Shown here: in pieces, positions 36,374-61,612 of the stretch
How positions within the stretch are numbered: position 1 is the first letter of the stretch
How the letters are laid out: each line of letters opens with the position of its first letter
Source: a virus
Virus record (IMG/VR): IMGVR_UViG_3300042691_039794
Span: 11,565 to 75,564 of that record
Length of the DNA stretch: 64,000 bases
Reading direction: 5' to 3' (one strand)
Notes under the pieces: generated by a model
What the model was told of the DNA's origin: nothing
Databases searched by the model: none
Seen by the model: the letters and a program-made list of their open reading frames with translations, nothing else
Program-made: the position numbers and the translations under genes

Positions 36374-36606
36374 TAAAACATTACCCCCAACCTAAAGAAA
36401 AATACCAACACTATAAAGGTGGTCAGTACGAAGTTATTTGTATGTGTAATCATACAGATACCAATGAACCACTTGTAATTTACAAATCACTTTCTTTTGG
36501 TTCACAATACGCAAGACCATTTTCTGAGTGGTACGATGAGGTCGAAACTAAAAAATGGGGAAATAAAGAATATTCAGTTTTAAGATTTGAAAAAATAGAA
36601 GAGTAA
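36370..36606 (+). CDS. DUF1653-family protein
   Basis: YQHYKGG.YEV...HT.T.E.LVIY...RP. Confidence 0.85.
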   Translation: MIKHYPQPKEKYQHYKGGQYEVICMCNHTDTNEPLVIYKSLSFGSQYARPFSEWYDEVETKKWGNKEYSVLRFEKIEE

Positions 36607-37781: not shown

Positions 37782-38606
37782 ATGAATAAAATTTTAGAAA
37801 TTTTTAAACAGTTCAAAACTGAATTGGTGTGGATTTATTTTTTCATGTTGATTACAGAATTATCAATTCTTGCAACACCACTCCTTCTTGGAAAAAGTAT
37901 TGATGGATTGATAAACGGAAATTGGTATTGGTTAATATTTCTTGGGATTTCATACTTCATATCAAACTTTTTCAATTACAAAAGAATGGTATATGACACC
38001 AAAGTTTATACAAAAATTTACAATAGTATTGTTTTTAGATTTTTAAAAAAAAATAATGTTGATGTATCTACAAAAATTGCAAGAACCGACATGGCACACC
38101 AGATAGTTGGTGTTTTAGAGGGTTATGTTCATTATTATATTGCAACAGTTGTAACAATTTTAGGATCAATAGGTTTCATTTATTCTGAAAATTGGAGAGT
38201 TGGATTACTTGTAACTTTAGGGTTTATTTTAATACTTCTTGCTGTTTTAGTTTTTTATAAAAAAATTAAACAAGCAATCAAAGTTAGAAACAATCAATAC
38301 GAAAAAAAGGGTGAGGCGTTAGAAAAAGGTTATTTAGAGTCAATATCTTTTTTTAACAGAAGAGGAAAATTAGAAATTTTTGAATCCACACTACAGGGTA
38401 AAAATTGGTTTTTGATTGGATCAATTAAAAATTTATTTTTATTTCTATCTATAATCCTTCTTGTTACAACAACGGAAAACATAACAATAGGAAGTGTGGT
38501 TACGGTTTACTCCTATGTTAATAATTTTATGATTTCATTGTTATCAGTTCCTGTGGCTGTTGAAATGTTTTCGAGATTAAGTGATATATTAAAAAGAATA
38601 AATTAA
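37782..38606 (+). CDS. ABC-exporter transmembrane domain without an ATPase domain
   Basis: About six TM helices; PLLLGKSIDG, YDTKVYTKIY, ITIGSV..VYSY. Confidence 0.75.
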   Translation: MNKILEIFKQFKTELVWIYFFMLITELSILATPLLLGKSIDGLINGNWYWLIFLGISYFISNFFNYKRMVYDTKVYTKIYNSIVFRFLKKNNVDVSTKIARTDMAHQIVGVLEGYVHYYIATVVTILGSIGFIYSENWRVGLLVTLGFILILLAVLVFYKKIKQAIKVRNNQYEKKGEALEKGYLESISFFNRRGKLEIFESTLQGKNWFLIGSIKNLFLFLSIILLVTTTENITIGSVVTVYSYVNNFMISLLSVPVAVEMFSRLSDILKRIN

Positions 38607-39196: not shown

Positions 39197-40081
39197 ATGA
39201 AAGTTTTAAAATTAGGATCTAAAGGAAAAGAGGTTGAAGATCTTCAAAAATACTTAAAAATTAAAGTTGATGGTGATTTCGGACCTAAAACAGAAGAGTC
39301 AGTAAAAAAATTTCAAACTGCAAATAAATTAGTTGCTGATGGTATTGTTGGTGAAAAAACATGGAATGCCATGGGTTTTTATATTACCACTGAGTTATCT
39401 GAAACGATAATATCCACTGAAAAATTGATCATAGATCAAAAATACATGGATAAAGATGAGTATTTGGCAGGACCAACAAAAAAAGAATATTTGTTTTTAC
39501 ACCATACCGCTGGAGGACACGACCCTTATTCTGTTATTAAAATGTGGAATAACGACACTCGAGGAAGAGTAGGGACAGAATTTGTTATGGGAGGTCAGTC
39601 CGTGTTCAACGGCAATGACATATATGATGGGTCTCTTGTTCAATGTTTTCCTGAGGGTGCTTATGGTTGGCACTTAGGTGAAAATGGATCACAACACATG
39701 CATACTCACTCGGTTGGTATTGAAGTTTGTAATTTTGGACCAATTAAAAATGGTTTAACTTATACTGGTCAAAAGGCAAATCCACTTCAAATTGTGGAAC
39801 TTAAACAACCATTTAGAGGATCAAAATTTTATCATAGATATTCTGATAAACAAATCAGTACACTCAAATCATTCATTTTATACATTGCAGAAAGAGATAG
39901 TATTGACGTAAGAAAAGGTTTGGTACAAGAGATTAAAAGTAAAGGTGCTGCAGGTTTCGAATTCAATTCTGACGCTTACTACGGGAAAATAAAAGGTATG
40001 TGGACACACACCAACACAAGAAAAGATAAATCAGACATGTTTCCTCAACAAGAACTCATCGACATGTTATTAAGTTTGTAA
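39197..40081 (+). CDS. PG-binding domain plus N-acetylmuramoyl-L-alanine amidase
   Basis: DGDFGPKT/DGIVG PG-binding repeats; LHHTAG, WH, SVGIEVCN, HTN.R.DK.D. Confidence 0.9.
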   Translation: MKVLKLGSKGKEVEDLQKYLKIKVDGDFGPKTEESVKKFQTANKLVADGIVGEKTWNAMGFYITTELSETIISTEKLIIDQKYMDKDEYLAGPTKKEYLFLHHTAGGHDPYSVIKMWNNDTRGRVGTEFVMGGQSVFNGNDIYDGSLVQCFPEGAYGWHLGENGSQHMHTHSVGIEVCNFGPIKNGLTYTGQKANPLQIVELKQPFRGSKFYHRYSDKQISTLKSFILYIAERDSIDVRKGLVQEIKSKGAAGFEFNSDAYYGKIKGMWTHTNTRKDKSDMFPQQELIDMLLSL

Positions 40082-41016: not shown

Positions 41017-41853
41017 TTACTTAAGTAAGTTATAATATTCTTTAAAGTGTTTGATACGATCAGGTAAACCAATTGTTCCACCATTCACTCTTTTTGTTAC
41101 TGAAGTAACTGTTGCATCATCAGCACCTTTATCGCAAATCGCCCAAAGTTTATTTGAATCAAAGAAGAAAGCTGCAGACGCTAAAGGATATTTGGTTGCA
41201 ACCAAGTCAGGATTCGCAACACAATCTTCACCAATAAATTTTGTAAAGTTTGTATAGTTTGCCTTTCCTGTTAATTGGATATAACCTCTACCTCTAAATT
41301 TAAATCCTTCTTTAGATGCTTCATCTCCATTACCCATTCTTGATGCGTAAACACGAGCGGCAATCTTTTCAGGTTGACGAGCGTAAGATTCATTTAAGTT
41401 ACCAGGAAAATACTTTCCGAAGATCTTCTTCAAACCATCCGCAGAGTAATTCAAGTTTTCACTTACTGCCTTGAAATTACCTGACTCATGACCACATTGT
41501 GCCAAGAAGTGAGCTAATCTCAAATTATTTGTAATATTGAATTTCTTTGCAGTTTCAGGAATCTGAGCAAGAACCGCATCAGGAATATGACCCTTTAACT
41601 TCTCAATATTTAATGGACCTCCTGATGGGATAACCACATCCTCTTTAATAACTTCTGTGGTAGGTTTTGACTCACCAAATAGTTTAGCCCATGTTGCATC
41701 ACCAACGATACCATCATCTTTTAAACCATTCGCTTTTTGCCAAGCTTTAACCGCAGCTTCTGTTTTTGGTCCGAATTTACCTATGGCTTCTACACCTAAT
41801 TTTTCTTGGAGTTTTTTTACATCAGCTCCTTCTGATCCGACTTTTAATATCAT
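41017..41853 (-). CDS. PG-binding domain plus GH19 endolysin
   Basis: AHFLAQCGHES, ENLNYS, FRGRGYIQLTG..NY, VNGG..G..DR; start reassigned to MILKVGS. Confidence 0.92.
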   Translation of the reverse strand: MILKVGSEGADVKKLQEKLGVEAIGKFGPKTEAAVKAWQKANGLKDDGIVGDATWAKLFGESKPTTEVIKEDVVIPSGGPLNIEKLKGHIPDAVLAQIPETAKKFNITNNLRLAHFLAQCGHESGNFKAVSENLNYSADGLKKIFGKYFPGNLNESYARQPEKIAARVYASRMGNGDEASKEGFKFRGRGYIQLTGKANYTNFTKFIGEDCVANPDLVATKYPLASAAFFFDSNKLWAICDKGADDATVTSVTKRVNGGTIGLPDRIKHFKEYYNLLK

Positions 41854-41962
41854 AATGTTAGATTTTCCTATAAATAGTAAATTCATTAACAAAGTAAAGT
41901 TTTTCTTATAAAAAAATGATCAGTTCGTGGTTTTTAAGATACTTATTAGTAAATGAAAAAAT

Positions 41963-42562
41963 ATGGGATACACAAGAGAACAGGTCGAGGCTGCCGTTAA
42001 AGCCAAAGGTTATGTTTATTTCGAAGACGCCTCAAACAAGGGTTACGACATAAACATTATAGGTATAAGAAACGCGGCTACCGGTCAAAAGGTAACAAAC
42101 GCGTTTGATGACTTATTAACGATAAGTTACAAAGATGAAACAGGAGCGTGGAAATACCACGAATGGCCAGCAACCACAGATCCTGGTAAAAAAGGTGTGT
42201 TGGAATATCACAACTCTGCCGGTGTTGCAAGACTTGTTGAAGGTCAGTACAGAGGTTCACACTCTATTGGTCTTCACCAAGGTAAATACGAAGCTTTAAG
42301 ACAGGCAAAAAATGTTAAAGTTTATCGTGACCCAAATCGTGATTTAACTTATGATGAAACAAAAATTGCTGAAGGAGTTTTTGGTATTAACATTCACAAG
42401 GCAGGTGCCGATTCAACTTATGTTGAGAATTGGAGTGAGGGATGTCAGGTGTTTAAGAAGTCGGCGGATTTTGAATCTTTTATGAAGATCTGTAGATTGG
42501 CTCGAGACAAACACGGAAACTCTTTCACATATACTCTTATTGAGAGTTCAGACATAAAATAA
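41963..42562 (+). CDS. YkuD/L,D-transpeptidase-like peptidoglycan enzyme
   Basis: TTDPG; GINIH...WSEGCQV (His...SxGC motif). Confidence 0.65.
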   Translation: MGYTREQVEAAVKAKGYVYFEDASNKGYDINIIGIRNAATGQKVTNAFDDLLTISYKDETGAWKYHEWPATTDPGKKGVLEYHNSAGVARLVEGQYRGSHSIGLHQGKYEALRQAKNVKVYRDPNRDLTYDETKIAEGVFGINIHKAGADSTYVENWSEGCQVFKKSADFESFMKICRLARDKHGNSFTYTLIESSDIK

Positions 42563-42586
42563 AACTAAACTTTAAGAACTACGAAA

Positions 42587-44494
42587 ATGAAACAACTAAA
42601 AAGCCTGTTGATCGGGCTTTTGCTATTCTTACCATTTATTGGTAAGGCACAGGTACCTGCAGCACCATCAAATGGTCTATGGGGAATTATCGCAGCCCAA
42701 TATCAAGTTGGGACAACAGCACAAGGCACAACAGATGCGAAGATCACACTTCAAAATACTACCCTAACAAAATTTGCGGGTACTCAATTTAGAGTGTTCT
42801 ACGATAATGTAGCGTTTACAAATGCAACGGTATCTTTAATTGGATCACCAACAAACTTAGACCTTCAGTATATTACAAATACGGCAAATGGTTACATTAC
42901 CATTACACTTGTTTACACAGGTCCAAGTGCGACTTACACAATACCAAATGGTGAAAGATTTTTAATTACTTTCACTCATGCGGCGGCGGCAACATTTAAT
43001 AACTTGGCGTCGATCAGTAACTTAACTTGGTCAGGACCTCAAACCTTTACACCGTATGCCGCAAAACAAGATGGTATGGATACTACGTTAAGTGTTCATA
43101 ACTATGGTGGTGTTTTCACTCCTGTTAACTTCGCTTATCACGGAACATTCACAAACGTTACTGGATCTGCGGCTAAGTATTTAAACTTGGCTTTACAGAG
43201 AAGACCGTTTGGTGGGAACACATGGACACAACACTCAACTTATGTTACTGATATCAACGGGGACTTTAGTATTTCAGTTCCTTTAGATACAACATATTGG
43301 GATGTTAGATTGGCAATCCAAGGAGACACAATGGGTGTTGGTAATATTATCTCATCAACAGATGCTCAGTTAATAAATCAGTGGGTTTTAGGAAACGGAA
43401 CTATGACTGGATTTAATTACTACTCTGCGGATGTTAACGGATCTAATAACATAACCGTATCTGATGTATGGGGTGTGTTTGGTAGAATCTCAGGAAGATT
43501 TAACTCATGGCCAAACAACACAAAAGATGTTAAATTCTTTACAGCATCTGAATACACAACAATCAATGGATCAGCAACTAACTACACATCAACTATTGCA
43601 GGTGTAACAAACTTTACATTTGATATCCTACCGGGTCAACCTGACTCAGTTGTATATTATGTATTGGTTCCTGGTGATGCTAACGGTACAGGTTATAACA
43701 TGGCTCGTGTTACTCCTATCGAAGTATTGGTTGGACCAATACCAGGTTTGGAATCACAAATCTATAATGTGATCGATACTAAAGTTGAGTATGACTTCCC
43801 TACAACAACTATAGAAGTTAATGTTCCTCATATTTCGGTTGAATCTGGAAACTTGGTAAACCTTCCTGTGAAAGTATTCACAAACGGAGAGGAGTTATCA
43901 GCACTTCAATTCGGTTTGAAATATGATACAGACCTTTTAGAATTTAAAGGAATCATTTCTTCATCAAATGCAATGGAGTGGATCACATATGTGAATCCAA
44001 ATGACGGACAAATAGATTGGGGTGGGTTTGATCAAACAAACAACGAACAAACTTTAAAAGATGGTGATGAGGTTGTTACATTACAGTTTATTGCAAAACA
44101 ACCACAAACACTTTGGGAAGATAGTCCATTGTATACTTCATTGAAGTTTGCAGGTACGAAAGACTCAAAGGATTTAACAATAACACCAACTAACGGAATC
44201 CTACAAGTATTAAAAAGTAACATGGGAGATGTTAACGGAAACACAATACAAGTTAATCCTAATCCTGTTGTAGATGAAGTTACAATCACCTTCAAAGTTG
44301 AAGAAACAACAATCGCAAACCTTTCAGTTTATGATGTGGTTGGAAGAAAGTTGATCACAATTTTAGATGGGCAGTTACCAAATGGTGAATATACCTATAA
44401 TGAAAGTTTAGGTACATTAAAACCAGGACTTTATGTGGTAACATTAACTATGGAAAATGGAGGAACAAAAGTTTCCAAAATTGTAAAACAATAA
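42587..44494 (+). CDS. secreted scaffoldin-like protein: cohesin, beta-sandwich, dockerin, cohesin, T9SS CTD
   Basis: SP ...GKA/Q; AGTQFRVFYD and SALQFGLKYD cohesin motifs; ADVNGSNNITVSD; NPNP...YDVVGR...PGLY...KIVK. Confidence 0.8.
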   Translation: MKQLKSLLIGLLLFLPFIGKAQVPAAPSNGLWGIIAAQYQVGTTAQGTTDAKITLQNTTLTKFAGTQFRVFYDNVAFTNATVSLIGSPTNLDLQYITNTANGYITITLVYTGPSATYTIPNGERFLITFTHAAAATFNNLASISNLTWSGPQTFTPYAAKQDGMDTTLSVHNYGGVFTPVNFAYHGTFTNVTGSAAKYLNLALQRRPFGGNTWTQHSTYVTDINGDFSISVPLDTTYWDVRLAIQGDTMGVGNIISSTDAQLINQWVLGNGTMTGFNYYSADVNGSNNITVSDVWGVFGRISGRFNSWPNNTKDVKFFTASEYTTINGSATNYTSTIAGVTNFTFDILPGQPDSVVYYVLVPGDANGTGYNMARVTPIEVLVGPIPGLESQIYNVIDTKVEYDFPTTTIEVNVPHISVESGNLVNLPVKVFTNGEELSALQFGLKYDTDLLEFKGIISSSNAMEWITYVNPNDGQIDWGGFDQTNNEQTLKDGDEVVTLQFIAKQPQTLWEDSPLYTSLKFAGTKDSKDLTITPTNGILQVLKSNMGDVNGNTIQVNPNPVVDEVTITFKVEETTIANLSVYDVVGRKLITILDGQLPNGEYTYNESLGTLKPGLYVVTLTMENGGTKVSKIVKQ

Positions 44495-44517
44495 ACCCTA
44501 AATAAACAAAAACAAAA

Positions 44518-44862
44518 ATGTCAGAAGAACAAGAAACACAAGAGACTAATGACGGGACATGGTCAGGTCTTAAAAAAACAATCATCGGAACTTTAACAAC
44601 AGTTATAGCCGGTGGTGGTATTTGGTTAAGTACAATTTTATTTGGTGGTAGTAGTGAAGAACCGAAAGAGGAAACAAAAACAGAACAGTCTGGAGGTCAA
44701 GCACCAATCACAATAAATGTACAACAAAACCAAGAAAATAAACAAAAAACAGAGAACAACAATGGGGGTGGTGTAGTTCGTGAGAGAATCATCGAAAGAC
44801 CTGCACAACAACCAGCGGCACAACCTGAGAAACCTAAAAAAGTAGAAGAGGAATCTTGGTAA
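44518..44862 (+). CDS. single-TM protein with a Q/E/P-rich tail
   Basis: TM TIIGTLTTVIAGGGIWL. Confidence 0.75.
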   Translation: MSEEQETQETNDGTWSGLKKTIIGTLTTVIAGGGIWLSTILFGGSSEEPKEETKTEQSGGQAPITINVQQNQENKQKTENNNGGGVVRERIIERPAQQPAAQPEKPKKVEEESW

Positions 44863-44889
44863 TAAATAAACAATAAATAAAAACAAAAA

Positions 44890-45174
44890 ATGGGACACAA
44901 GAAAACAAAAAAATCATTCTTAGTAAGAATGTTCATGGATCATAACGATATCAACGAAAAATCAATAGTTGGTTTTGGTTCATTTTTAATGATGGTTATC
45001 TGTCTTGGTGTAGACATCTGGACAGGATTTCACGGACAAAAAATGCCAATCAATCAATTTATCTATGATGGATTTTTATGGATCACTTTAGGTTCATTTG
45101 GAATTGCATCAGTTGATAAGTATTTTGCTGGTAAGAATCCAACTAACGAGGAAGAGGAAGAAGTAGAAGGGTAA
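44890..45174 (+). CDS. two-TM protein (holin-like)
   Basis: Two TM helices, basic N-terminus, acidic C-terminus. Confidence 0.6.
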   Translation: MGHKKTKKSFLVRMFMDHNDINEKSIVGFGSFLMMVICLGVDIWTGFHGQKMPINQFIYDGFLWITLGSFGIASVDKYFAGKNPTNEEEEEVEG

Positions 45175-45908
45175 TGAAAAGAATACTTTACATATTACCA
45201 TTTCTAATGATCGGATGTAAAACTGTAGCTCAGCCCCCTCAAGGAGGGGGTATTGGCTCTGTTAAAACAGAACAATATGTTGCAGATTTTGAAAAGAAAC
45301 AATCAATAGACTCGGTTGCTGATTACGATGGATCTATTCAGGTTCCTATCCAATTATTAAAGATTGGAATTAACGAAGAACTTTATGAATTATATCCTGA
45401 GTTAAAAGATAAAAGAGTAGGTCTTGGTGTTACAAATATTGTAATTGAATATTTGGAATATACCAACAGATTTATTTTCACCGAAGAAAAGGAAGATATC
45501 AAACAAAGAATGATTGCTCAAGACAAGGCATCAGACAAAGGTATATCTTCAAATAAAATAGAAGTAAAAGGTAATGTTGTTTTGGCTAAGTACTTCGTTT
45601 ATATTGAGGTATATGATTTTTCAGTATCAGAAGACGAGATTGTAAAAGTTAATGGACAACAAACCGTAAATCAAACTACAAGATTAGGTCTTCAGATCAA
45701 ATTTGTAGATGCTGAAACAAGTCAGGTGATTGTAGGATCAGGACTTGGAGAAGCGGTAACAATTAAAACAACATCAATCTTGGGTGATATCTCAGATGAT
45801 GTTAAATTCAACCAATCAACTGTAGGTATATCTACAAAAAAAGCTTTAGAAACAGCCTCATCAAGAGTTGTGACTAGACTTATATCAAAAGGTGTATTTC
45901 CGAAGTGA
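45174..45908 (+). CDS. CsgG/HfaB-like outer-membrane lipoprotein
   Basis: Lipobox MIGC; GVTNIVIEYL..TNRF...E; LQIKFVDAETSQV..GSG.G. Confidence 0.7.
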   Translation: MKRILYILPFLMIGCKTVAQPPQGGGIGSVKTEQYVADFEKKQSIDSVADYDGSIQVPIQLLKIGINEELYELYPELKDKRVGLGVTNIVIEYLEYTNRFIFTEEKEDIKQRMIAQDKASDKGISSNKIEVKGNVVLAKYFVYIEVYDFSVSEDEIVKVNGQQTVNQTTRLGLQIKFVDAETSQVIVGSGLGEAVTIKTTSILGDISDDVKFNQSTVGISTKKALETASSRVVTRLISKGVFPK

Positions 45909-47569
45909 GAATAAACATTTTCATATCTTTGTTGTTCGTCCTATTTAGTTTTTTCAAACTAAACGCACAGACCTACAACTATTCTTACACTGATCCTTGT
46001 ACAGGAAACATAAAAAACCTTATAGTCCCCATCAATGGTTCAGTCACGGTGGGGTACTATGGTTTTGTTGAGAATTTTACTCAACAACAATTTACAGATG
46101 GAACTTTTGAAACTTGGGCTAACCAAGTTTTTTCGCAATATGAAGGATCACCATGTTCAGAGATAATTGGACTTGGTGGGCAGATTAACATCGGACAAGA
46201 TGTTGCTTTAAATACAATAGGTATAATCAATTCTCTTTCGTCTTTAATGGACATATCAAATGGGGCAACCGACTTTTTGAGTGGATCATTAAATGCGGCG
46301 TCAAATTCTTCTAATACCCAAGGAAGTAAAGGTAATAAGAAGAATGGGAATAATTCCCAAAATGGAAGTGGAAACAATACACCAAATACTAATAACACCA
46401 CAACCAATAATACTCAAAATCAAACAAATGGAACAAGTAACACTACTGAAGGAAGTACAACCACTTCTGGAACAAATGAAACAAGTTCAAACAACGGAGG
46501 AAATGGAACCACTAATCAAAATGGTGGAACTGAAAATCCAACACCAGCAGGAGGAACTTCAACTGAGGGTGGATCAAATGCGAATGGAAATTCACAGGCT
46601 AGCCAGCCTATAAACAATCAAAACCAAGGTAATGAAAATAATAGTAATAATACTAGTGGCGTCGATCCTGGGAACGCTAGTGTCGTTGGGAATAGTGGGA
46701 ATGTGGAAGGATCTAACCAACAAGGACAACAAGAATTAACCAATAATGGTTCTACAACTAACCCTAACGGTAATGGTTCTAATGGTGGTGGGAACTCTGG
46801 TGTGGGGGGTAATGGTGGAAACCAACCTAACACAGAAGAAACAACACCACAAGAAGAACAAGGAGGAGGACAAACCAATATTACACAAGGGGCTACAAAA
46901 ACAATAAATCAGAATAAGGAAGGTGGTAAACCTACAGTAATTGCATCGAGTGATTTTGTAGGTTTCAACTTTCAAAACTCTGAAGTTAGAACAGGATTGA
47001 AACTAACGGGTGGATATCATAACATGCGTTGGGATGGCGAAACTGCTCGTGGTGGTTTGGTTGATTATGTATCGGCACAACAGGGACCTAACATGACTGG
47101 ATACCATGCGTGGATCAACAAAAGAAGTGTTGGTCTTTTATCAGGAACTTTATCTTTAGGGTTTGAAGGTAGAGGATCTGTCTATGGGACAATTGCAGGA
47201 GGACAAATGTTTATGTTCCCAAAAATTCCAAGTTTGAAAGCGGTTTATATGGGAACCGTATCATACGGTCAGGTATATAAAACTCAGTTCTTAGGAACTG
47301 CAATGATTGCAGGAGGGATGTATGACTTGAAGTTTGGAAAAAGAATAGATGTTAAACTTATGAGTTTATTTGTTTATTCACCATATGTCAGTTATTACAA
47401 TGATTTAGTATTAAAATCTCCTTATGTAATCTTACCAAGTATTGGAACCAATATAAGTATTACAAAGAGATTTAAATTCAACATAAATGCAGGAGGGGCG
47501 TGGGCAATAAAGGTAAACACTCTAAATTATACAATAACATGTGGAACAAGATTATTAGTTGGACAATAG
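45905..47569 (+). CDS. secreted protein with an N/G/T/Q-rich linker and a probable C-terminal beta-barrel
   Basis: SP ...LNA/Q; about 200-aa low-complexity linker; amphipathic strands. Confidence 0.75.
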   Translation: MRINIFISLLFVLFSFFKLNAQTYNYSYTDPCTGNIKNLIVPINGSVTVGYYGFVENFTQQQFTDGTFETWANQVFSQYEGSPCSEIIGLGGQINIGQDVALNTIGIINSLSSLMDISNGATDFLSGSLNAASNSSNTQGSKGNKKNGNNSQNGSGNNTPNTNNTTTNNTQNQTNGTSNTTEGSTTTSGTNETSSNNGGNGTTNQNGGTENPTPAGGTSTEGGSNANGNSQASQPINNQNQGNENNSNNTSGVDPGNASVVGNSGNVEGSNQQGQQELTNNGSTTNPNGNGSNGGGNSGVGGNGGNQPNTEETTPQEEQGGGQTNITQGATKTINQNKEGGKPTVIASSDFVGFNFQNSEVRTGLKLTGGYHNMRWDGETARGGLVDYVSAQQGPNMTGYHAWINKRSVGLLSGTLSLGFEGRGSVYGTIAGGQMFMFPKIPSLKAVYMGTVSYGQVYKTQFLGTAMIAGGMYDLKFGKRIDVKLMSLFVYSPYVSYYNDLVLKSPYVILPSIGTNISITKRFKFNINAGGAWAIKVNTLNYTITCGTRLLVGQ

Positions 47570-48537
47570 TATTTTTTTGTGTGTTCTCATTAAACGCACA
47601 AAACTTTACATATTCAGGTTACATAAGAAATGCTGATGGTACTGGAGCTGTTAATGTACCTGTTAAATTATATAAAAGAACTACGCCCGTAATAAATGGG
47701 TTCACATCTCAAAATAACTACAACGGACATTCTTACTATAGATCTACAGGATCTATGTTTTGGAGCGATGCTAGACAAGCTTGTCTGAATATGGGAGGAC
47801 ACTTGGTTACGGTAACAAGTGCTGCTGAAAACTCTTTTATATTTGGGATTTGGCCTTCAGGTTGGATTGGATTAACAGATGAAGTAGTTGAGGGTCAATG
47901 GAGATGGGTTACAAATGAAACATACTCCTACACCTCATGGAATCCTGGTGAACCAAATAATGCGGGTAACGAAGATTATGTTCAATTTGTGGGGGGTGGT
48001 AAATGGAATGACTTACCAAACGGAGTATCCTTACCATATGTGTTAGAGTTTGAATATATAGTAACATACACACCATGGGTATTACATCAAACAGTATACA
48101 CAAACGCTTCAGGATATTATAATTTTTCACAACCAACAAACCCATCAGTTGAATGGTACATACAGTACGACGCACCAACACCAGTAACTGCATTACAAAT
48201 AACTGATATGGTTGAAGTTTCTAAATTGGTATTAGGGATAACCTCAATTAAAAGTATTCACTACCATAGGTATGATGTTAACTATGATGGTAGAATAAAT
48301 GTTGCAGATGAAAACTACATTAATCTTAGACGATACGGTTTTTTTGGTGGGTGGATTAATATGAGTCCATCTAGATTATTCACACCTGCACAATACACAA
48401 CATTAACGACAAATACAACAGACATGAGAATAGCAATTCCTGGTGTATCATCTATAACAATAAACTCACCTGTAAGTGGGGGATCGCAAAACTATTACTT
48501 GATAGCTCCTGGGTATAAAACAACAGTCAGTTACTAA
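47539..48537 (+). CDS. secreted C-type lectin plus dockerin-like protein
   Basis: SP ...LNA/Q; W..A...C...GGHL, WIGL.D, W..GEPNN, WND; YDVNYDGRINVAD. Confidence 0.85.
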   Translation: MWNKIISWTIVFFCVFSLNAQNFTYSGYIRNADGTGAVNVPVKLYKRTTPVINGFTSQNNYNGHSYYRSTGSMFWSDARQACLNMGGHLVTVTSAAENSFIFGIWPSGWIGLTDEVVEGQWRWVTNETYSYTSWNPGEPNNAGNEDYVQFVGGGKWNDLPNGVSLPYVLEFEYIVTYTPWVLHQTVYTNASGYYNFSQPTNPSVEWYIQYDAPTPVTALQITDMVEVSKLVLGITSIKSIHYHRYDVNYDGRINVADENYINLRRYGFFGGWINMSPSRLFTPAQYTTLTTNTTDMRIAIPGVSSITINSPVSGGSQNYYLIAPGYKTTVSY

Positions 48538-49334
48538 TGAAAAAACTTTTAATTACACTTTTAATACCTTTTGGGTTGTTTAGTCAAGGACCGCCACCAC
48601 CTCAACAAACATCCACAACTACACAAGATTTTGGTAATACCCAAAATAATATTAACGGAGTTCAAGGTAGATCTTTTGGTGGAGGATCAATAGTTAAACC
48701 AAATCCAATTCTAACATCCGCAGATTTCGCATTTATCCAAAACCCAACATATGAAACTGGATGGAGATATGGGACGGGTATTGGTTATAGTCGAATTAAC
48801 ATGGGTAAAGGTTTTGGAGTAAACGCAATGTTAACTTTTGATTTAACCCAACAAACATATTCTTTGTATTACAGAAAAAATGATTGGTATTTTCATTTAA
48901 ACACTGGTAAAATGGGTTTTACTTTAAACAATGGGTTTAGTGTGACTAAAATATGGGAACTTGGAAAAATGTATGATTTAACATTAGGGGTTCAGGTAGG
49001 TAATTCAGTGGTTATAAACGGTGATAAAAATTCGATAGGTGCTTATTTTGTTAATGTACCGTACTTAGTTTTATTGGGTCAAAAAGAAATAATAATATCA
49101 AAAAAATTAGAATGGAGACCCGAGGGATTTATTACTCTGTGTTCACCATATTATGATATAGGAAAAAAATACTTCTCAACATCAAACACATTCAACGTTG
49201 TTGTAGGGAATAATATTTCATACAATTTATCTAAAAAATTTAGGTTGAATATTGATTGGAGAATGAATATGAATACAACCCCAAAGTGGGGTTTAATGAA
49301 TAATGTTCTTATTGGAACAAACTTAAAATTTTAA
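48537..49334 (+). CDS. outer-membrane beta-barrel protein
   Basis: SP ...LFS/Q; alternating strands; terminal ...IGTNLKF (BAM-type signal). Confidence 0.75.
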   Translation: MKKLLITLLIPFGLFSQGPPPPQQTSTTTQDFGNTQNNINGVQGRSFGGGSIVKPNPILTSADFAFIQNPTYETGWRYGTGIGYSRINMGKGFGVNAMLTFDLTQQTYSLYYRKNDWYFHLNTGKMGFTLNNGFSVTKIWELGKMYDLTLGVQVGNSVVINGDKNSIGAYFVNVPYLVLLGQKEIIISKKLEWRPEGFITLCSPYYDIGKKYFSTSNTFNVVVGNNISYNLSKKFRLNIDWRMNMNTTPKWGLMNNVLIGTNLKF

Positions 49335-49337
49335 AAT

Positions 49338-49790
49338 ATGAAAAATATAATCTTACTACTTGGTATGTTACTACTTGGTAACCTCGCAACGGCACAACAG
49401 TGTGTTTATGTTGATTCAGTTTACAACACTGCTAAACTAAAAGAAATGGGAAACAGAGATATCAGGTTTGGTATTCGACAAATTGTTGAGGATGAACTAT
49501 CCGAAAAGTTTTGTTTATCTGAGGAAGGAAAAGATATTGATGTTGAAGTATTTTACTTTGGATTACCTAAAACTACAATTAGAATTGTTGGTGTTGAAAA
49601 GACCGAATCAGTTACTCAAGTTGGTGTTAGATTATACTATGATGGTAAATGTTATGAAGGGATTGGAGAGTCAGAAACAGAGATCAGAGCAATTATGATT
49701 GAGGTTAAAGAAGGTATGTTACCTTTTGAAAAAATGACTGTATCATCGGCATTAAAAAAGGCTATACACGAAGCCGTTATCAAAATATGA
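49338..49790 (+). CDS. secreted CsgG-fold paralog of 45174-45908
   Basis: SP ...ATA/Q; GIRQIVEDEL, GIGES, F...TV..ALKKA align with 45174. Confidence 0.65.
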   Translation: MKNIILLLGMLLLGNLATAQQCVYVDSVYNTAKLKEMGNRDIRFGIRQIVEDELSEKFCLSEEGKDIDVEVFYFGLPKTTIRIVGVEKTESVTQVGVRLYYDGKCYEGIGESETEIRAIMIEVKEGMLPFEKMTVSSALKKAIHEAVIKI

Positions 49791-50239
49791 AAATATGGCA
49801 ACTTTTGATATTGTTAATGTTTTGGTCATCATCTTTCTCGCAAATCCGTATCGCTGATGTTGGGGATGGTTGGAAAGGTAAAGTAGAACAAGCATTAGAT
49901 ACTATAAAGAAATACGACATTCAAAAGTATTATCTGATTATGGAAAACTGTTCTAATGTTGCTTATTGGAATGGAGGGTTCTCAACCACAGAAGGAGATA
50001 GTACAATCACTATACCGGCAAGAGAAATGAACGATGGAAATATCTATAACATTTCTGCGATTTTAGTTCACGAAACAATACATTTATACTTCAAAGGAAC
50101 CAAGTTCAATTTGAATCCAAACACCGAAGAAGTAATTGCATATCAACACGAACTTGAATTTTTAGAAAAGATTCCATGTGTTGATCCATGGTTAATTGAA
50201 AATGCCAAAAACAAAATCAAATTTTATTCAAAACCATAG
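49787..50239 (+). CDS. secreted putative zinc metallopeptidase
   Basis: SP ...SFS/Q; ILVHETIH...EEVIAY. Confidence 0.7.
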   Translation: MKIWQLLILLMFWSSSFSQIRIADVGDGWKGKVEQALDTIKKYDIQKYYLIMENCSNVAYWNGGFSTTEGDSTITIPAREMNDGNIYNISAILVHETIHLYFKGTKFNLNPNTEEVIAYQHELEFLEKIPCVDPWLIENAKNKIKFYSKP

Positions 50240-50274
50240 TTGATTTAGTTAATCAATTGGTCTATTTTTGAGGT

Positions 50275-50496
50275 ATGAAAAGAATTGCACTCATATCTCT
50301 TTTATTACTTTTGTTCTCTTGTGTCCCAACATATAAATACAAAATTACTAATTCAAAAGGAAATTCATTTTACTGTAATTTCTATAACGAAACGGGTAAT
50401 GGGTGCATTTTTTTTAATAAAAACCCTGGTTTAAACAATACACCAGGAGAACCACACATGATTTGTGGTGAATATAAAATTGAAAAGTTAAAATAA
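50275..50496 (+). CDS. small lipoprotein
   Basis: Lipobox LFSC; ATG lies 4 nt after TATTTTTG. Confidence 0.7.
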   Translation: MKRIALISLLLLLFSCVPTYKYKITNSKGNSFYCNFYNETGNGCIFFNKNPGLNNTPGEPHMICGEYKIEKLK

Positions 50497-50497
50497 A

Positions 50498-50752
50498 ATG
50501 GAAAAAGAAGGACCGGATGTTGGATTATTGTTTGTGATGATATTAGGTTTTTTATTAGGTATGGTTTTAATATCTTGTGAGGAAAAAAAAGAACCAGAAA
50601 TTGTAATAGAATTATCAAAAGATAGTAAAAACTCTACTAGTAATGTTGATGAATATGCCTATCAAGGTTGTGAGTATATAGTGGTAGGGCCAATAAACCG
50701 TAGATGGGGTTCACATAAAGGAAACTGTAAAAACCCAATTCATAAAAAATGA
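50498..50752 (+). CDS. small putative lipoprotein
   Basis: LISC; GCEY...HKGNCKNPIH motif. Confidence 0.7.
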   Translation: MEKEGPDVGLLFVMILGFLLGMVLISCEEKKEPEIVIELSKDSKNSTSNVDEYAYQGCEYIVVGPINRRWGSHKGNCKNPIHKK

Positions 50753-51072
50753 CAGATCAAGAAATCGTTAAATACGGAGAAATACAATACCTAAAAGGTA
50801 GATTAGATGAACTTTTCAAAGCTCTATCAACAATAACCAATATGGACAGGAAAAGAAGACTGGACCAACGAATTGAAAAATACTTCAACAAATTAAAAAA
50901 AGTTGATGAAGTCGCATTTCATTTATATCAAGTAGAGTTGAGTAACAGACAAAGATCAAAAGAAAAATCTAAAAACGAAATTAAAGATTTACTTGAACAA
51001 ATTTTAATAAATGAGAATATCATGAATGAAGATATTCTTGAAAGGATCAAAAAACAAATTGATCGTTACTGA
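50749..51072 (+). CDS. hypothetical protein
   Basis: 107-aa ORF. Confidence 0.7.
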   Translation: MTDQEIVKYGEIQYLKGRLDELFKALSTITNMDRKRRLDQRIEKYFNKLKKVDEVAFHLYQVELSNRQRSKEKSKNEIKDLLEQILINENIMNEDILERIKKQIDRY

Positions 51073-54255: not shown

Positions 54256-55107
54256 TCATTTTGATGTGGAAACCACGTCTGACCTTACCCAACCATAAGT
54301 ACGAACCCAACTCACATCATTGTCAAGTTTGACTAAATACCATGTTTTGCCATCATCACCTTTTTTAGAACTTTGAACAACACCAATTGGATCGGGATAA
54401 TAAACATCGTTAATTATATTATTTATCAGACCATTGTTAACGTAAGGTTCAGTTCTAACATTTGCATAATTTGAATCACTGGTTTTTTTAGGGTAAATAA
54501 TTTTTCCAATTACCGATTGGACAACAGGTTTTTTTGTCTTGAGTTCTTCGGCATATTTTTTAAACGCTTTTTGATTATTGACCATTCTTTCTGCAACTGT
54601 GCCAGGTATGTTCGATTTAGAAAAATCAACATTCCACCCTTCTAAATATTTTTTTGATGCGGAATCCCATTTGTTTGCATTAATGTCTTGAACCCACTGA
54701 TAAGATTTTTTAGCTTCACCTCTGAAAACTGAATTAACTAAAGCTCTTTGAACGTAAATCGGGTAAGATTCAAATTTTGGAAAAATATCTTTTGCTTTGG
54801 ACTCTTCATCTGCAATATCTTTTTTAAGAACACTCTCAGCTTCAGAATTGGATAATTTTTTTCCATACTTAGCGTACTGACCAGTGTGTCCATAACCAAT
54901 TGTTAAAATACCACCTTTTTTATCTTTTGGTGTTACAATAAATTTTTTAGGTCTATTTGGATCTTTATCGTCATATACATAATGCTCCCCTTTTGAATTA
55001 ACAACTTTGGACTCATATTTTTTTATGGTATCCATCATCACTTTGTCCCCAACTACAGATTCCTTCAATAAGTTAAACTGTTTATAAGAAATAATTATTT
55101 TTTTCAT
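54256..55107 (-). CDS. GH24-type lysozyme with a C-terminal SH3b-like domain and late-type leader
   Basis: IKKYE...YDD...LTIGYGH; ANVRTEP...WY.V...GWVRSD. Confidence 0.8.
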   Translation of the reverse strand: MKKIIISYKQFNLLKESVVGDKVMMDTIKKYESKVVNSKGEHYVYDDKDPNRPKKFIVTPKDKKGGILTIGYGHTGQYAKYGKKLSNSEAESVLKKDIADEESKAKDIFPKFESYPIYVQRALVNSVFRGEAKKSYQWVQDINANKWDSASKKYLEGWNVDFSKSNIPGTVAERMVNNQKAFKKYAEELKTKKPVVQSVIGKIIYPKKTSDSNYANVRTEPYVNNGLINNIINDVYYPDPIGVVQSSKKGDDGKTWYLVKLDNDVSWVRTYGWVRSDVVSTSK

Positions 55108-61340: not shown

Positions 61341-61612
61341 AAAATATAATTTTAATTTTAATTTTTTTGTTACCTGTCAAATTACTTTCTCAAGAAAAAA
61401 AAGATAGCATACCACATTTGATATCCCAAGGTACAACAAGTTGTCTACTTTCTACATTACCAATCATAGGTGGTGTTGGAGTAATTATGGATGGAGGCGA
61501 TATGAAAACAAAATCCCAATCATATGTATTTTTTGGTGTCGGTGTCATTATGAATGTAGATGCACTATTCGCATTTCGTAGGGTGAAATATCTTTCAAAA
61601 CATAGGATATAG
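61337..61612 (+). CDS. membrane or secreted protein
   Basis: SP ...LLS/Q followed by two hydrophobic segments. Confidence 0.65.
   Translation: MKNIILILIFLLPVKLLSQEKKDSIPHLISQGTTSCLLSTLPIIGGVGVIMDGGDMKTKSQSYVFFGVGVIMNVDALFAFRRVKYLSKHRI

What the first reader, a model, noticed from the sequence alone, without database searches (positions are those of the whole stretch)
41963..50239. Candidate new system: a phage-encoded outer-membrane display apparatus (cohesin/dockerin scaffold, lectin, twin CsgG-like proteins, twin beta-barrels)
Seen: nine same-strand genes, the last six with touching or overlapping ends. They are visibly less AT-rich than the flanks and nearly all are envelope-targeted. In order: an LD-transpeptidase-like enzyme, a cohesin/dockerin/T9SS-CTD protein, a 1-TM protein, a 2-TM protein, a CsgG-like lipoprotein, a linker-plus-barrel protein, a lectin-dockerin protein, a second barrel, a second CsgG-fold protein and a secreted HExxH protein. 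Three internal paralog pairs suggest one complex that evolved together. Known: cohesin-dockerin pairs assemble cellulosomes, CsgG forms the curli secretion pore, and T9SS exports CTD cargo in Bacteroidota. Inference: the phage builds a modular glycan-binding structure on the infected cell. Possible roles are sticking to new hosts or particles, masking receptors or excluding superinfection, or helping breach the outer membrane (a GH19 endolysin is divergently linked). I know of no described system with this combination.
Basis: partly seen in the sequence, partly recalled or inferred. Interest (0 to 1): 0.9.

Follow-up and report, generated by a model that had tools for sequence, protein, structure and literature searches.

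The report
Phage envelope module beside lysis genes
A large family of big Flavobacterium-type phages carries a conserved, phage-only block of exported genes, always next to the lysis genes: a T9SS-tagged cohesin/dockerin protein, a swappable lectin, two CsgG-fold proteins, a tethered 12-strand outer-membrane barrel and small inner-membrane proteins. It most likely builds a complex in the infected cell's envelope, but its role is not yet known.

Summary
The window is part of a 75.6 kb IMG/VR phage contig, and complete relatives are 270-292 kb. From 42587 to 50752, twelve consecutive same-strand genes encode signal-peptide, lipoprotein or transmembrane proteins. Eight of 11 ATG-ORFs look signal-peptide-like, against 6 of 94 elsewhere in the window.

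The domain calls mostly hold:
- Cohesin, T9SS type A CTD and C-type lectin (EPN/WND) pass the Pfam cut-offs. The dockerin is sub-threshold but has the motif.
- o5 has the CsgG/LptE/PelC fold and reaches Pfam CsgG through intermediates. It has no CsgG-like membrane hairpins, so a pore is unsupported.
- o6 is a small N-terminal domain, an Asn/Gly/Ser/Thr/Gln tether and a 12-strand barrel.
- All three paralog pairs are real at BLAST or profile level.
- The LD-transpeptidase label for o1 was not verified.

In 48 full-length related loci, o2, o3, o5, o6, o7 and o9 co-occur 48/48. A small 2-TM holin-like protein sits beside o5 in about 46/48, and a GH19 endolysin lies within 6.5 kb in 42/48. The second barrel is accessory (2/48). 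A Sec-exported nuclease often fills its slot (19/48).

The module occurs in the isolate Flavobacterium phage immuto and is essentially absent from 185,579 bacterial species genomes. Function is unproven. I found no description of it. Other first-stage notes on this same genome flagged the same stretch.

The parts
41017..41892 (-). GH19 + PG_binding_1 endolysin, with no signal peptide. It flanks the module.
   Evidence: Pfam hits. It lies within 6.5 kb of o5 in 42/48 full loci, on either side and in either orientation, and is also adjacent in distant clades.
41963..42562 (+). o1: cytoplasmic 199-aa candidate wall-acting enzyme. His145 and Ser158-x-Gly-Cys161 are invariant. The YkuD-like label is unverified.
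   Evidence: phrog_3000 at E 1e-37 and phrog_33083 'endolysin' at E 3e-12. No Pfam or PDB hit. Alignment A10. Near the module in 21/48 loci.
42587..44494 (+). o2: signal peptide, N-terminal beta domain (weakly cohesin-like), dockerin-like module (about 245-300), cohesin (409-508) and T9SS type A CTD (557-635).
   Evidence: Across orthologs the CTD is found in 29/29, cohesin in 24/29 and dockerin in 11/29. It is the only CTD protein over the Pfam cut-off in each complete genome. A weak second cohesin-like hit falls in the N-terminal part. In phage immuto it is split into gp014 and gp015, each with its own signal peptide.
44518..44862 (+). o3: bitopic inner-membrane protein, N-terminus inside. 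It has a roughly 70-aa low-complexity periplasmic stretch that ends in a conserved acidic-Trp tip (EEESW / EDAPW).
   Evidence: Sequence and alignment A8. Present in 48/48 loci.
44890..45174 (+). o4: 94-aa protein with two TM segments and a charged C-terminal tail. It has holin-like architecture only.
   Evidence: Alignment A9. No PHROG or Pfam family. Either the o4 type (20/48) or a second 2-TM type (26/48) lies directly beside o5. In distant clades the o4 type lies next to the endolysin.
45174..45908 (+). o5: lipoprotein (LMIGC lipobox) with the CsgG/LptE/PelC fold. It is among the most conserved genes of the module.
   Evidence: AF2 model at pLDDT 58.8. Foldseek CsgG 4uv2 at E 1e-8. VIA Z 10-11.5 for Cj1090c, CsgG and PelC, with LptE at 9.2. 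The profile reaches proteins that pass Pfam CsgG. 6024 relatives at E<=1e-3, and some JGI records name it CsgG. Some orthologs lack the lipobox Cys.
45905..47569 (+). o6: signal peptide, N-terminal domain with two invariant Cys (23-89), helix (90-121), disordered Asn/Gly/Ser/Thr/Gln tether (118-340) and C-terminal 12-strand outer-membrane barrel (344-553).
   Evidence: AF2 model, with the barrel at pLDDT about 80. VIA: NalP Z 22.9, EstA 22.2, KdgM Z 19.2 at rmsd 1.6, FapF 18.9. Foldseek. The tether is 74-277 aa in orthologs. Present in 48/48 loci.
47539..48537 (+). o7: signal peptide, C-type lectin domain (EPN and WND motifs) and dockerin-like module shared with o2. It has no CTD.
   Evidence: Lectin_C at E 7e-16. 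PDB C-type lectins down to E 1e-25. Module shared with o2 at E 3e-9. In orthologs the payload is CTLD, CTLD+Laminin_G_3, GEVED or CTLD+Ig_7. The ATG at 47539 is the likely start.
48537..49334 (+). o8: signal peptide and a barrel-only paralog of the o6 barrel, ending in ...NLKF. Accessory gene.
   Evidence: hhalign to the o6 C-terminus: 84.6%, E 6.8e-6. Atlas features point to outer-membrane barrel families, which is a lead only. Present in 2/48 loci. In 19/48 loci a Sec-exported Endonuclease_NS gene fills this slot.
49338..49790 (+). o9: small, non-lipidated secreted paralog of o5, with a conserved Cys just after the signal-peptide cleavage site.
   Evidence: hhalign of A1 against A2: 91.7%, E 8e-7. 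Alignment A2. Present in 48/48 loci.
49787..50239 (+). o10: secreted 150-aa protein with invariant HExxH (H95, E96, H99) plus E114, E115 and E122. Candidate small Zn-metallopeptidase.
   Evidence: Alignment A5. No PDB hit. Nearest named Atlas clusters are DUF6647 and eCIS_core, leads only. Present in 46/48 loci, sometimes divergent upstream of o2.
50275..50752 (+). o11 (50275-50496) and o12 (50498-50752): two small Cys-rich lipoprotein-like ORFs (LLFSC, VLISC). Accessory genes.
   Evidence: Sequence. No Pfam hit. o12 is present in 11/48 loci and o11 in 1/48.

Best explanation
This is a phage-specific envelope module that is inherited together with the lysis genes. It most likely assembles a complex spanning the infected Flavobacteriia cell's envelope and puts a glycan-binding unit on or outside the outer membrane.

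Proposed steps:
1. (Shown by sequence) Every product from o2 to o12 carries a Sec signal peptide, a lipobox or TM segments, so all leave the cytoplasm.
2. (Inferred from the domain) o2 is taken across the outer membrane by the host T9SS through its type A CTD.
3. (Inferred) The dockerin-bearing lectin protein o7 has no CTD. It docks on the o2 cohesin, either in the periplasm so that it rides out with o2, or after release.
4. (Inferred from folds and gene order) The CsgG/LptE/PelC-fold proteins o5 and o9 sit on the periplasmic face of the outer membrane next to the 12-strand barrels o6 and o8. The inner-membrane protein o3 reaches them with its extended tail. This set would serve as an anchor or gate, not as a CsgG pore.
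5. (Speculative) The output is lectin occupation of variable host surface glycans around the time of lysis. That would mask receptors on infected cells and debris, or exclude other phages. The secreted HExxH protein, and in many relatives a secreted nuclease, would be further lysis-time effectors.
For: - Phage origin and host: an IMG/VR contig with complete relatives of 270-292 kb. The isolate Flavobacterium phage immuto carries the module.
- Envelope targeting: 8/11 against 6/94 ORFs.
- Core co-occurrence 48/48, retained in clades where o5 is only 37-40% identical to the query (P0163) used to find them.
- CTD in 29/29 o2 orthologs, and o2 is the only CTD protein over the Pfam cut-off in each complete genome.
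- Cohesin and dockerin hits are essentially confined to o2 and o7 in those genomes.
- The natural split of o2 in immuto gives an SP+dockerin protein and an SP+cohesin+CTD protein. This is a fusion/fission pattern that suggests the two parts work together.
- The o7 payload swaps between CTLD, Laminin_G_3, GEVED and Ig_7. That pattern is expected for recognition of variable surface ligands.
- The folds of o5 and o6.
- Near-absence from 185,579 bacterial species genomes.
Against: - No experiment or expression timing is available. RNA-library contigs only show that pieces are present.
- Both structure models have low overall confidence (pLDDT 58.8 and 55.0).
- The cohesin-dockerin pairing, the piggyback export and any o5-o6-o3 contacts are all untested.
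- The dockerin is below the Pfam cut-off in the window.
- A holin-like gene inside the module, and two wall hydrolases beside it in most relatives, fit a lysis machine at least as naturally.
- Type A CTD cargo is often released rather than displayed (background knowledge).
Confidence: 0.4

Rival explanations
1. The module is the outer-membrane step of lysis in these Bacteroidota phages. It would replace spanins. o3 (inner-membrane anchored, with an extended periplasmic tail) and o5/o9 (outer-membrane associated), together with the o6 barrel, would link the two membranes and disrupt or open the outer membrane once the 2-TM holin-like protein and the GH19/o1 hydrolases have acted. o2 and o7 would be accessory.
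For: - A 2-TM holin-like gene lies directly beside o5 in about 46/48 loci.
- GH19 lies within 6.5 kb in 42/48 loci, on either side.
- In distant clades the order is o9, then the o4-like gene, then the endolysin, then o1; or the endolysin, then the o4-like gene, then o2.
- The o3-o4-o5 order resembles holin/i-spanin/o-spanin cassettes.
- No recognisable spanin was seen in the window.
Against: - o3 has no evident coiled coil. o5 is a 240-aa globular, very conserved protein, unlike the small proline-rich o-spanins.
- Some o5 orthologs lack the lipid anchor.
- A T9SS-exported cohesin protein and a lectin with swappable payloads are not needed to break a membrane, yet both are core genes (48/48).
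- In immuto the annotated endolysin lies about 8 kb away.
Confidence: 0.25
2. The module is a nutrient-capture device of the auxiliary-metabolic-gene type. The lectin would capture glycans or particles, KdgM/Tsx-like 12-strand barrels would admit oligosaccharides or nucleosides, and a secreted nuclease would feed nucleotide salvage for a very large phage genome.
For: - The closest barrel superposition by rmsd is KdgM (Z 19.2, rmsd 1.6), followed by NanC and the Vibrio oligogalacturonate porin. Tsx also appears at Z 12.9.
- A Sec-exported Endonuclease_NS gene lies inside the module in 19/48 loci, and also in immuto and L096.
- Neighbouring genes include thymidylate synthase, a metallophosphoesterase and, in immuto, ribonucleotide reductase.
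- A 2026 preprint reports that 10-22-strand phage outer-membrane proteins often neighbour transport genes.
Against: - Fold similarity among 12-strand barrels is generic, and autotransporter domains score higher.
- The nuclease and the second barrel are accessory genes.
- No inner-membrane transporter lies in the module.
- This reading does not explain the CTD-cohesin protein, o3, o5/o9 or the holin-like gene.
Confidence: 0.1
3. It is not one system. It would be a hotspot where unrelated exported accessory genes (morons) have accumulated next to the lysis cassette.
For: - Several slots are variable: o8 or the nuclease, o11/o12, the o4 type or the alternative 2-TM type, and the position of o10.
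- Phage genomes often collect accessory genes near lysis genes (background knowledge).
Against: - Six genes co-occur 48/48 in a fixed order and persist in clades with 37-40% identity.
- There are three internal paralog pairs.
- The genes overlap or abut, as in an operon.
- All core families are restricted to these phages.
Confidence: 0.1
4. The proteins are virion parts or virion decorations, for example lectin fibres, and are not host-envelope proteins.
For: Lectin, Laminin_G_3 and Ig-like domains are common on phage tails and heads (PMC7824862).
Against: - Cleavable Bacteroidota-type signal peptides, a lipobox and a T9SS CTD are present on nearly every product.
- Outer-membrane barrel folds.
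- No clear cohesin or dockerin (at the Pfam cut-off) outside the module in three complete genomes.
- In immuto the module lies among replication and nucleotide-metabolism genes, not structural genes.
Confidence: 0.05

Closest known systems
T9SS cargo anchored by co-encoded outer-membrane barrels in Bacteroidota (SprB/SprF, PorP-like proteins, PorZ/PorQ). Recalled background knowledge.
   Same: A CTD-bearing secreted protein is encoded beside outer-membrane beta-barrel genes. The host phylum matches. Cell-surface anchorage of the cargo is the expected outcome.
   Different: - The CTD here is type A, not type B.
- The barrels have 12 strands and no PorP_SprF, PorV or other Pfam match.
- The genes are phage-encoded and restricted to phages.
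Cellulosome-type cohesin-dockerin assembly
   Same: There is a Pfam-significant cohesin and dockerin-like Ca-loop modules on two proteins. The cohesin sits on the exported or anchoring protein, and dockerins sit on a client with swappable payload domains.
   Different: - No glycoside hydrolases are present; the payloads are lectin or adhesin domains.
- There are only one or two cohesins.
- Export is by a T9SS CTD rather than by SLH or sortase anchoring.
- The setting is a lytic phage.
- Binding was not tested.
CsgG curli channel, and the wider LptE/PelC/PqiC/LpoB fold of outer-membrane lipoproteins
   Same: o5 is an outer-membrane-type lipoprotein with this fold (Foldseek E 1e-8, VIA Z about 10-11). 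It reaches Pfam CsgG through intermediate sequences. Like LptE-LptD and PelC-PelB, it is encoded next to a barrel.
   Different: - There is no direct Pfam CsgG hit.
- The two low-confidence loops, 123-135 and 203-213, are short and polar, so there are no membrane hairpins.
- No CsgA, CsgB, CsgE or CsgF was identified.
- Some orthologs are not lipidated.
Type Va autotransporter beta-domains, and the FapF amyloid secretion barrel
   Same: o6 has an N-terminal domain, a helix and a C-terminal 12-strand barrel. The best structural matches are NalP, EstA, Hbp and AIDA-I (Z 21-23), and their alignments start at model residues 48-80, well upstream of the barrel. FapF scores Z 18.9.
   Different: - A 74-277 aa disordered tether lies between the helix and the barrel.
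- There is no sequence similarity.
- The 'passenger' is only about 70 aa.
- The placement of the helix rests on a model region with pLDDT 57-69.
Single phage-encoded outer-membrane or periplasmic proteins (lambda Lom and Bor, T5 Llp, Cor) and the outer-membrane proteins and sortase-display modules of huge phages (bioRxiv 10.64898/2026.10.24.761521)
   Same: The phage places its own proteins in or on the host envelope. The preprint reports 1,603 barrel outer-membrane proteins in 1,303 huge phages, and proposes display of phage proteins on host surfaces.
   Different: - This is a conserved multi-gene set rather than a single gene.
- The preprint's main text does not mention CsgG, cohesin, dockerin, T9SS, lectin or Flavobacterium.
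Holin / endolysin / spanin lysis cassettes
   Same: The region holds a small 2-TM protein with a charged tail, wall hydrolases without signal peptides, a bitopic inner-membrane protein and an outer-membrane lipoprotein in adjacent genes.
   Different: - No holin or spanin family was matched.
- The lipoprotein is large and globular.
- Seven further exported proteins, including a T9SS substrate and a lectin, are core to the block.

Membership tests
T9SS type A cargo | C-terminal Por_Secre_tail / TIGR04183 sorting domain above the curated cut-off | tested here: met
   PF18962 scores 35.1 bits against a cut-off of 27, and TIGR04183 scores 38.2 against 23. It is present in 29/29 orthologs.
T9SS type A cargo | N-terminal Sec signal peptide | tested here: met
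   MKQLKSLLIGLLLFLPFIGKAQ, by a hydrophobicity rule.
T9SS type A cargo | Secretion that depends on the host T9SS | not testable with these tools
   This needs expression in a wild-type and a T9SS-mutant Flavobacterium.
Cohesin-dockerin system | Cohesin domain above the Pfam cut-off | tested here: met
   37.2 bits against a cut-off of 24.1. Present in 24/29 orthologs. One hit over the cut-off per genome.
Cohesin-dockerin system | Dockerin with paired Ca-binding loops, above the Pfam cut-off | tested here: inconclusive
   - The window scores 19.3 and 17.4 bits against a cut-off of 22.9.
- 11/29 orthologs match at E<=0.01, the best at 7.8e-5.
- In whole-genome searches, one ortholog passes at 24 bits.
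- The PDB ScaB dockerin matches at E 0.004.
- The second loop is canonical (DVNGSNNITVSD, DVNYDGRINVAD). The first loop is degenerate.
Cohesin-dockerin system | Physical cohesin-dockerin binding | not testable with these tools
This needs multimer modelling or a pull-down.
CsgG (curli secretion channel) | Match to Pfam PF03783 | tested here: not met
   - Neither o5 nor o9 has a hit at E<=0.1.
- The link is transitive only: the o5 profile hits P0163 (E 1e-31), P0258 and P0251, which themselves pass PF03783.
CsgG (curli secretion channel) | CsgG-like alpha/beta fold | tested here: met
   Foldseek 4uv2 at E 1e-8. VIA Z 10-10.9 for CsgG entries, which ties with Cj1090c and PelC; LptE scores 9.2. 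The model pLDDT is only 58.8.
CsgG (curli secretion channel) | Two amphipathic hairpins per protomer that build the 36-strand membrane barrel | tested here: not met
   The only unmodelled loops are 13 and 11 residues long and polar (GISSNKIEVKGNV and LGDISDDVKFN). This is judged on a low-confidence model.
CsgG (curli secretion channel) | Curli partners CsgA/B/E/F in the locus | tested here: not met
   No curli-family Pfam or NCBIfam hit was found in any module protein.
Type Va autotransporter | C-terminal 12-strand barrel | tested here: met
   The model has 12 strands across 344-553 at pLDDT about 80. NalP scores Z 22.9, rmsd 3.0, with 234 residues aligned.
Type Va autotransporter | Autotransporter beta-domain sequence family, with a pore helix joined directly to strand 1 | tested here: not met
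   There is no Pfam hit, and a 222-aa disordered tether separates the helix from strand 1.
C-type lectin (Ca-dependent carbohydrate recognition domain) | Lectin_C domain with EPN and WND motifs | tested here: met
   PF00059 at E 7e-16. PDB mannose receptor, langerin and DC-SIGN at E 1e-25 to 1e-14. GEPNN and WNDL are present in the sequence. Sugar binding was not tested.
Holin | Membership of a described holin family | tested here: not met
   There is no PHROG or Pfam match for o4 or its orthologs. Only the architecture fits: 94 aa, 2 TM segments and a charged tail.
L,D-transpeptidase (YkuD), for o1 | Match to YkuD by sequence or profile | tested here: not met
   There is no Pfam hit at E<=0.1. 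The PDB profile search returns only chance hits. An invariant His145...Ser158-x-Gly-Cys161 spacing resembles the YkuD motif as I recall it, which is a lead only.

The most novel reading that the evidence does not exclude
A lytic phage family builds its own multi-part envelope apparatus in Bacteroidota. An inner-membrane tether (o3), ring-type CsgG/LptE-fold proteins (o5, o9) and a tethered 12-strand barrel (o6) would form a trans-envelope base. The host T9SS would be hijacked to export a cohesin adaptor that carries CTD-less dockerin clients, with swappable lectin or adhesin heads, to the cell surface. This would be piggyback secretion through cohesin-dockerin pairing. The whole device would be wired to the holin so that surface glycan binding and lysis are coordinated.
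Probability: 0.25. Interest if true: 0.85.

Novelty: new variant of a known kind. Interest (0 to 1): 0.7.

Why it matters
Phage-encoded host-envelope proteins are known mostly as single genes such as Lom, Bor and Llp. Since a 2026 preprint they are also known as widespread outer-membrane proteins and sortase modules in huge phages. This case is different: a fixed set of six or more genes, restricted to phages, and very abundant in lakes, estuaries and wastewater (6024 relatives of o5).

The set combines a T9SS substrate, a cohesin-dockerin pair, a swappable lectin, CsgG-fold proteins and a tethered barrel, and it sits inside the lysis region. If it is a display device, it would be the first case of a phage using T9SS and cohesin-dockerin docking to decorate its host. 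If it is a lysis device, it would fill the unknown outer-membrane step of lysis in Bacteroidota phages.

Either answer can be tested now, because the cultured pair Flavobacterium sp. LMO8 and phage immuto carries the module.

Tried and rejected
- Megablast of the region against GenBank phages found no match. Only the protein-level search found immuto.
- Single-sequence and profile searches of the PDB gave nothing usable for o1, o5, o8, o9 and o10.
- PHROGs gave no family for any gene except o1.
- NCBIfam added only the CTD.
- BLASTP of the o2 N-terminal domain against its cohesin was not significant. Only weak Pfam cohesin hits to that region appear, in two other genomes.
- BLASTP of o6 against o8 was not significant. 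The relationship shows only at profile level.
- The sigma-70 promoter/terminator scan and the Bacteroidota -7 motif count were near chance and gave no operon boundary.
- RNA-library runs are Logan contigs. Near-identical pieces of o1-o2, o3-o5, o6 and o9 are present in two metatranscriptome studies. This shows neither transcription nor timing, and stretches without cover mean nothing.
- The genome-contig scan found only two MAG contigs, both with phage-like content.
- The o6 barrel family has no named or Pfam-bearing relative among 161 hits.
- The BFVD fold search returned only one CsgG-named uncultured-phage protein.
Whether the o6 helix lies inside the barrel is therefore inferred only from where the VIA alignments start.
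- The virion-part reading was rejected for the reasons given under the rival explanations.

Full report
WHAT THE WINDOW IS
The window is bases 11565-75564 of a 75.6 kb IMG/VR virus record that CheckV rates 26% complete. Relatives found through the o5 protein include contigs of 270-292 kb rated 99-100% complete. This is therefore a large or jumbo tailed phage.

One cultured relative carries the same block: Flavobacterium phage vB_FspM_immuto (160 kb, host Flavobacterium sp. LMO8). A Bacteroidota host also fits the T9SS sorting domain. The signal peptides end in AQ or SQ, which I recall as usual in that phylum. Near-identical DNA occurs in lake, estuary and wastewater metagenomes from several studies.

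THE OBSERVATION
GC is 0.33-0.39 across the block against about 0.27-0.31 beside it, though a few other window segments are as high.

A simple hydrophobicity rule finds signal-peptide-like N-termini on 8 of 11 ATG-ORFs in 42500-50800, against 6 of 94 in the rest of the window. o6 (GTG start) also has one. o3 has one TM segment and o4 has two. The envelope-targeted run continues through two small lipoprotein-like ORFs to 50752. o1 (41963-42562) and the divergent GH19 gene have no signal peptide.

WHAT EACH PROTEIN IS

o2
- It carries a Pfam cohesin (E 4e-9) and a T9SS type A sorting domain (PF18962 and TIGR04183, both over their cut-offs). It also has a dockerin-like module just under the Pfam cut-off.
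- Among 29 non-redundant orthologs, the CTD is found in 29, the cohesin in 24 and the dockerin in 11.
- The dockerin-like stretch has a canonical second Ca-loop and a degenerate first one. A family profile hits a solved ScaB dockerin at E 0.004.

o7
- It has a true C-type lectin domain with EPN and WND motifs.
- It shares a 150-residue dockerin-containing module with o2 (E 3e-9).
- It has no CTD.

o5
- It is a lipoprotein. Its AlphaFold model has low confidence (pLDDT 58.8), but it gives CsgG as the top Foldseek match (E 1e-8).
- VIA-align ties Cj1090c (an LptE-like protein), CsgG and PelC at Z 10-11.5, with LptE just below at 9.2.
- There is no direct Pfam hit. However, a profile of the family (270 clusters at 50% identity) reaches proteins that do pass Pfam CsgG/LpoB. 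Some of these are fused to kinase or caspase domains.
- I conclude that o5 belongs to the CsgG/LpoB/LptE-type superfamily of outer-membrane lipoproteins.
- The only unmodelled loops are 11-13 polar residues long. I therefore see no equivalent of CsgG's membrane hairpins and no support for a CsgG-type pore.

o9
- It is a shorter, non-lipidated paralog of o5 (hhalign 91.7%, E 8e-7).

o6
- The model shows a small N-terminal domain with two invariant cysteines, a long helix, a disordered tether and a 12-strand barrel at pLDDT about 80.
- The barrel matches autotransporter beta-domains best (NalP Z 22.9), then KdgM (Z 19.2, rmsd 1.6) and FapF (Z 18.9).
- The autotransporter alignments start at model residues 48-80, so they extend well upstream of the barrel and may take in the helix, which could then lie in the lumen. 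I could not inspect the coordinates.
- The tether is 74-277 residues long and 53-87% Asn/Gly/Ser/Thr/Gln across orthologs.

o8, o10 and o1
- o8 is a barrel-only paralog of the o6 barrel (hhalign 84.6%, E 6.8e-6). It ends in a terminal Phe of the kind I recall as typical of outer-membrane proteins.
- o10 keeps an invariant HExxH plus three glutamates, but it matches no family.
- o1 matches phrog_3000 and the C-terminal domain of a PHROG annotated as endolysin. The YkuD reading rests only on motif spacing and was not confirmed.

CONSERVATION AND CONTEXT
I used the 48 related loci that extend far enough on both sides of o5.

Counts:
- o2, o3, o5, o6, o7 and o9 are present in 48/48.
- o10 is present in 46/48.
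- The GH19 endolysin lies within 6.5 kb in 42/48.
- o1 is present in 23/48, and within 6.5 kb of o5 in 21.
- o8 is present in 2/48.

A small 2-TM protein with a charged tail lies directly beside o5 in about 46/48 loci. It is either the o4 type (20) or a second type (26). In 19/48 loci the slot between o7 and o9 holds a Sec-exported DNA/RNA non-specific endonuclease. The same enzyme lies at the edge of the module in immuto and inside it in a distant clade.

Three more distant loci were found with remote o5 relatives and share only 37-91% identity with those queries. They keep the order o2, o3, o5, o6, secreted protein, o9, with the o4-like gene, a PG-binding endolysin and o1 immediately alongside.

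GH19 and o1 move from one end of the module to the other between lineages but stay attached to it. The module is thus a conserved unit, and it is evolutionarily glued to the lysis genes.

It is also restricted to phages. One scan of 185,579 species genomes found two MAG contigs, both with phage gene content. The o5 and o6 families contain only unnamed metagenomic proteins, apart from a few JGI 'CsgG' labels.

CLUES TO MECHANISM
Each complete genome has exactly one CTD protein over the Pfam cut-off (o2) and one cohesin over the cut-off. Dockerin-like hits fall essentially only in o2 and o7. The cohesin and dockerin parts therefore belong to the module and not to the virion.

In immuto, o2 is naturally split into two genes. 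gp014 carries a signal peptide, the N-terminal domain and the dockerin module. gp015 carries its own signal peptide, the cohesin and the CTD. This fusion/fission pattern suggests that the dockerin part and the cohesin-CTD part work together. It also suggests that the cohesin-CTD unit is the exported adaptor.

The o7 slot carries different heads in different phages: C-type lectin, lectin plus Laminin_G_3, GEVED, or lectin plus Ig_7. Such swapping is typical of proteins that recognise variable surface ligands. It is hard to explain for a protein that never leaves the periplasm.

As I read the structures, members of the o5 fold (LptE, PelC, PqiC, CsgG) typically work as rings or plugs attached to outer-membrane barrels or trans-envelope structures. 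Here both fold copies are encoded next to a barrel gene (o5-o6 and o8-o9).

o3 is anchored in the inner membrane. Its extended periplasmic tail ends in a conserved acidic-Trp tip, which could reach these outer-membrane parts.

BEST READING AND RIVALS
I favour (0.4) a phage-built envelope complex that uses the host T9SS to put a cohesin adaptor and its dockerin-bearing lectin client at the cell surface. In this reading o5, o9, o6 and o3 form an outer-membrane base. The complex would act around lysis, for example by masking glycan receptors on infected cells and debris or by excluding other phages.

The main rival (0.25) is that the block is the missing outer-membrane step of lysis in Bacteroidota phages. 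The embedded holin-like gene and the attached hydrolases argue for it. The core status of the T9SS cargo and the swappable lectin argue against it.

The remaining rivals rate lower, for the reasons given in their entries:
- a nutrient-capture reading (0.1);
- a 'hotspot of unrelated genes' reading (0.1);
- a virion-part reading (0.05).

None of these readings has been tested experimentally. RNA-library contigs contain pieces of the module but prove nothing about expression.

COMPARISON WITH WHAT IS KNOWN
Full-text searches found no paper that links phages with T9SS cargo, cohesin-dockerin or CsgG-fold proteins in this way. A jumbo-phage survey discusses lectins only as virion parts.

A preprint of October 2026 reports that 18% of huge phages encode barrel outer-membrane proteins, and that some gut phages carry sortase-plus-substrate modules for surface display. 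Its main text does not mention CsgG, cohesin, dockerin, T9SS, lectin or Flavobacterium.

The general idea, that big phages remodel the host envelope, is therefore already in print. This particular multi-gene module appears undescribed. I rate it a new variant of a known kind. There is a real chance that it is a new type of apparatus.

Other first-stage notes on this same genome flagged the same stretch and its parts. I tested their paralogy and lectin claims here.

Noticed in passing
L012:13423-14010, L018:14075-14665, L085:5142-5720 (immuto gp012), L096:6836-7420: A Sec-exported DNA/RNA non-specific endonuclease (Pfam Endonuclease_NS, E 1e-21 to 1e-28) sits inside or at the edge of the module. 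It is present in 19/48 full loci and in two other clades. The window itself lacks it and has the o8 barrel in that slot.
   Followed up: partly
window 61661-62233: A 190-aa ORF with a clear signal peptide and a weak, sub-threshold T9SS CTD match (19-20 bits against a cut-off of 27). It is preceded by a 97-aa multi-TM ORF at 61319-61612. This may be a second, degenerate T9SS-type cargo.
   Followed up: partly
window 39197-40081, 41017-41892, 41963-42562, 54256-55107: Four candidate peptidoglycan-acting enzymes lie within 16 kb: Amidase_2+PG_binding_1, GH19+PG_binding_1, o1 and a phage lysozyme. None has a signal peptide.
   Followed up: no
window 36606-37778: The thymidylate synthase is 390 aa, against a 266-position Pfam model matched end to end, so it carries about 120 aa of insertions. 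Contigs from other runs laid here skip 113-174 bases at about 37037-37173 and 37319-37494. These are probably relatives without the insertions.
   Followed up: no
window 37782-38606: A 274-aa multi-TM protein matches Pfam ABC_membrane_3 (E 2e-19) directly downstream of thyA. No ATPase partner was noticed.
   Followed up: no
window 50498-50752: The small lipoprotein-like o12 has acidic residues right after the lipobox Cys (CEEKKEPE). This resembles the Bacteroidota lipoprotein surface-export signal as I recall it. o5 (CKTVAQ) does not have them.
   Followed up: no
P0220, P0221, P0225, P0241, P0258: Distant relatives of o5 are fused to caspase (Peptidase_C14) or Ser/Thr kinase domains. The fold therefore also serves as a non-pore periplasmic module in cellular proteins.
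   Followed up: partly
L057:14815-15558, and L086:4205-4948 (- strand): Some relatives carry a further secreted 247-aa barrel with a Pfam DUF481 / OMP_b-brl match, next to the module or within a few kb of it. Extra outer-membrane barrels are thus a recurrent accessory.
   Followed up: partly
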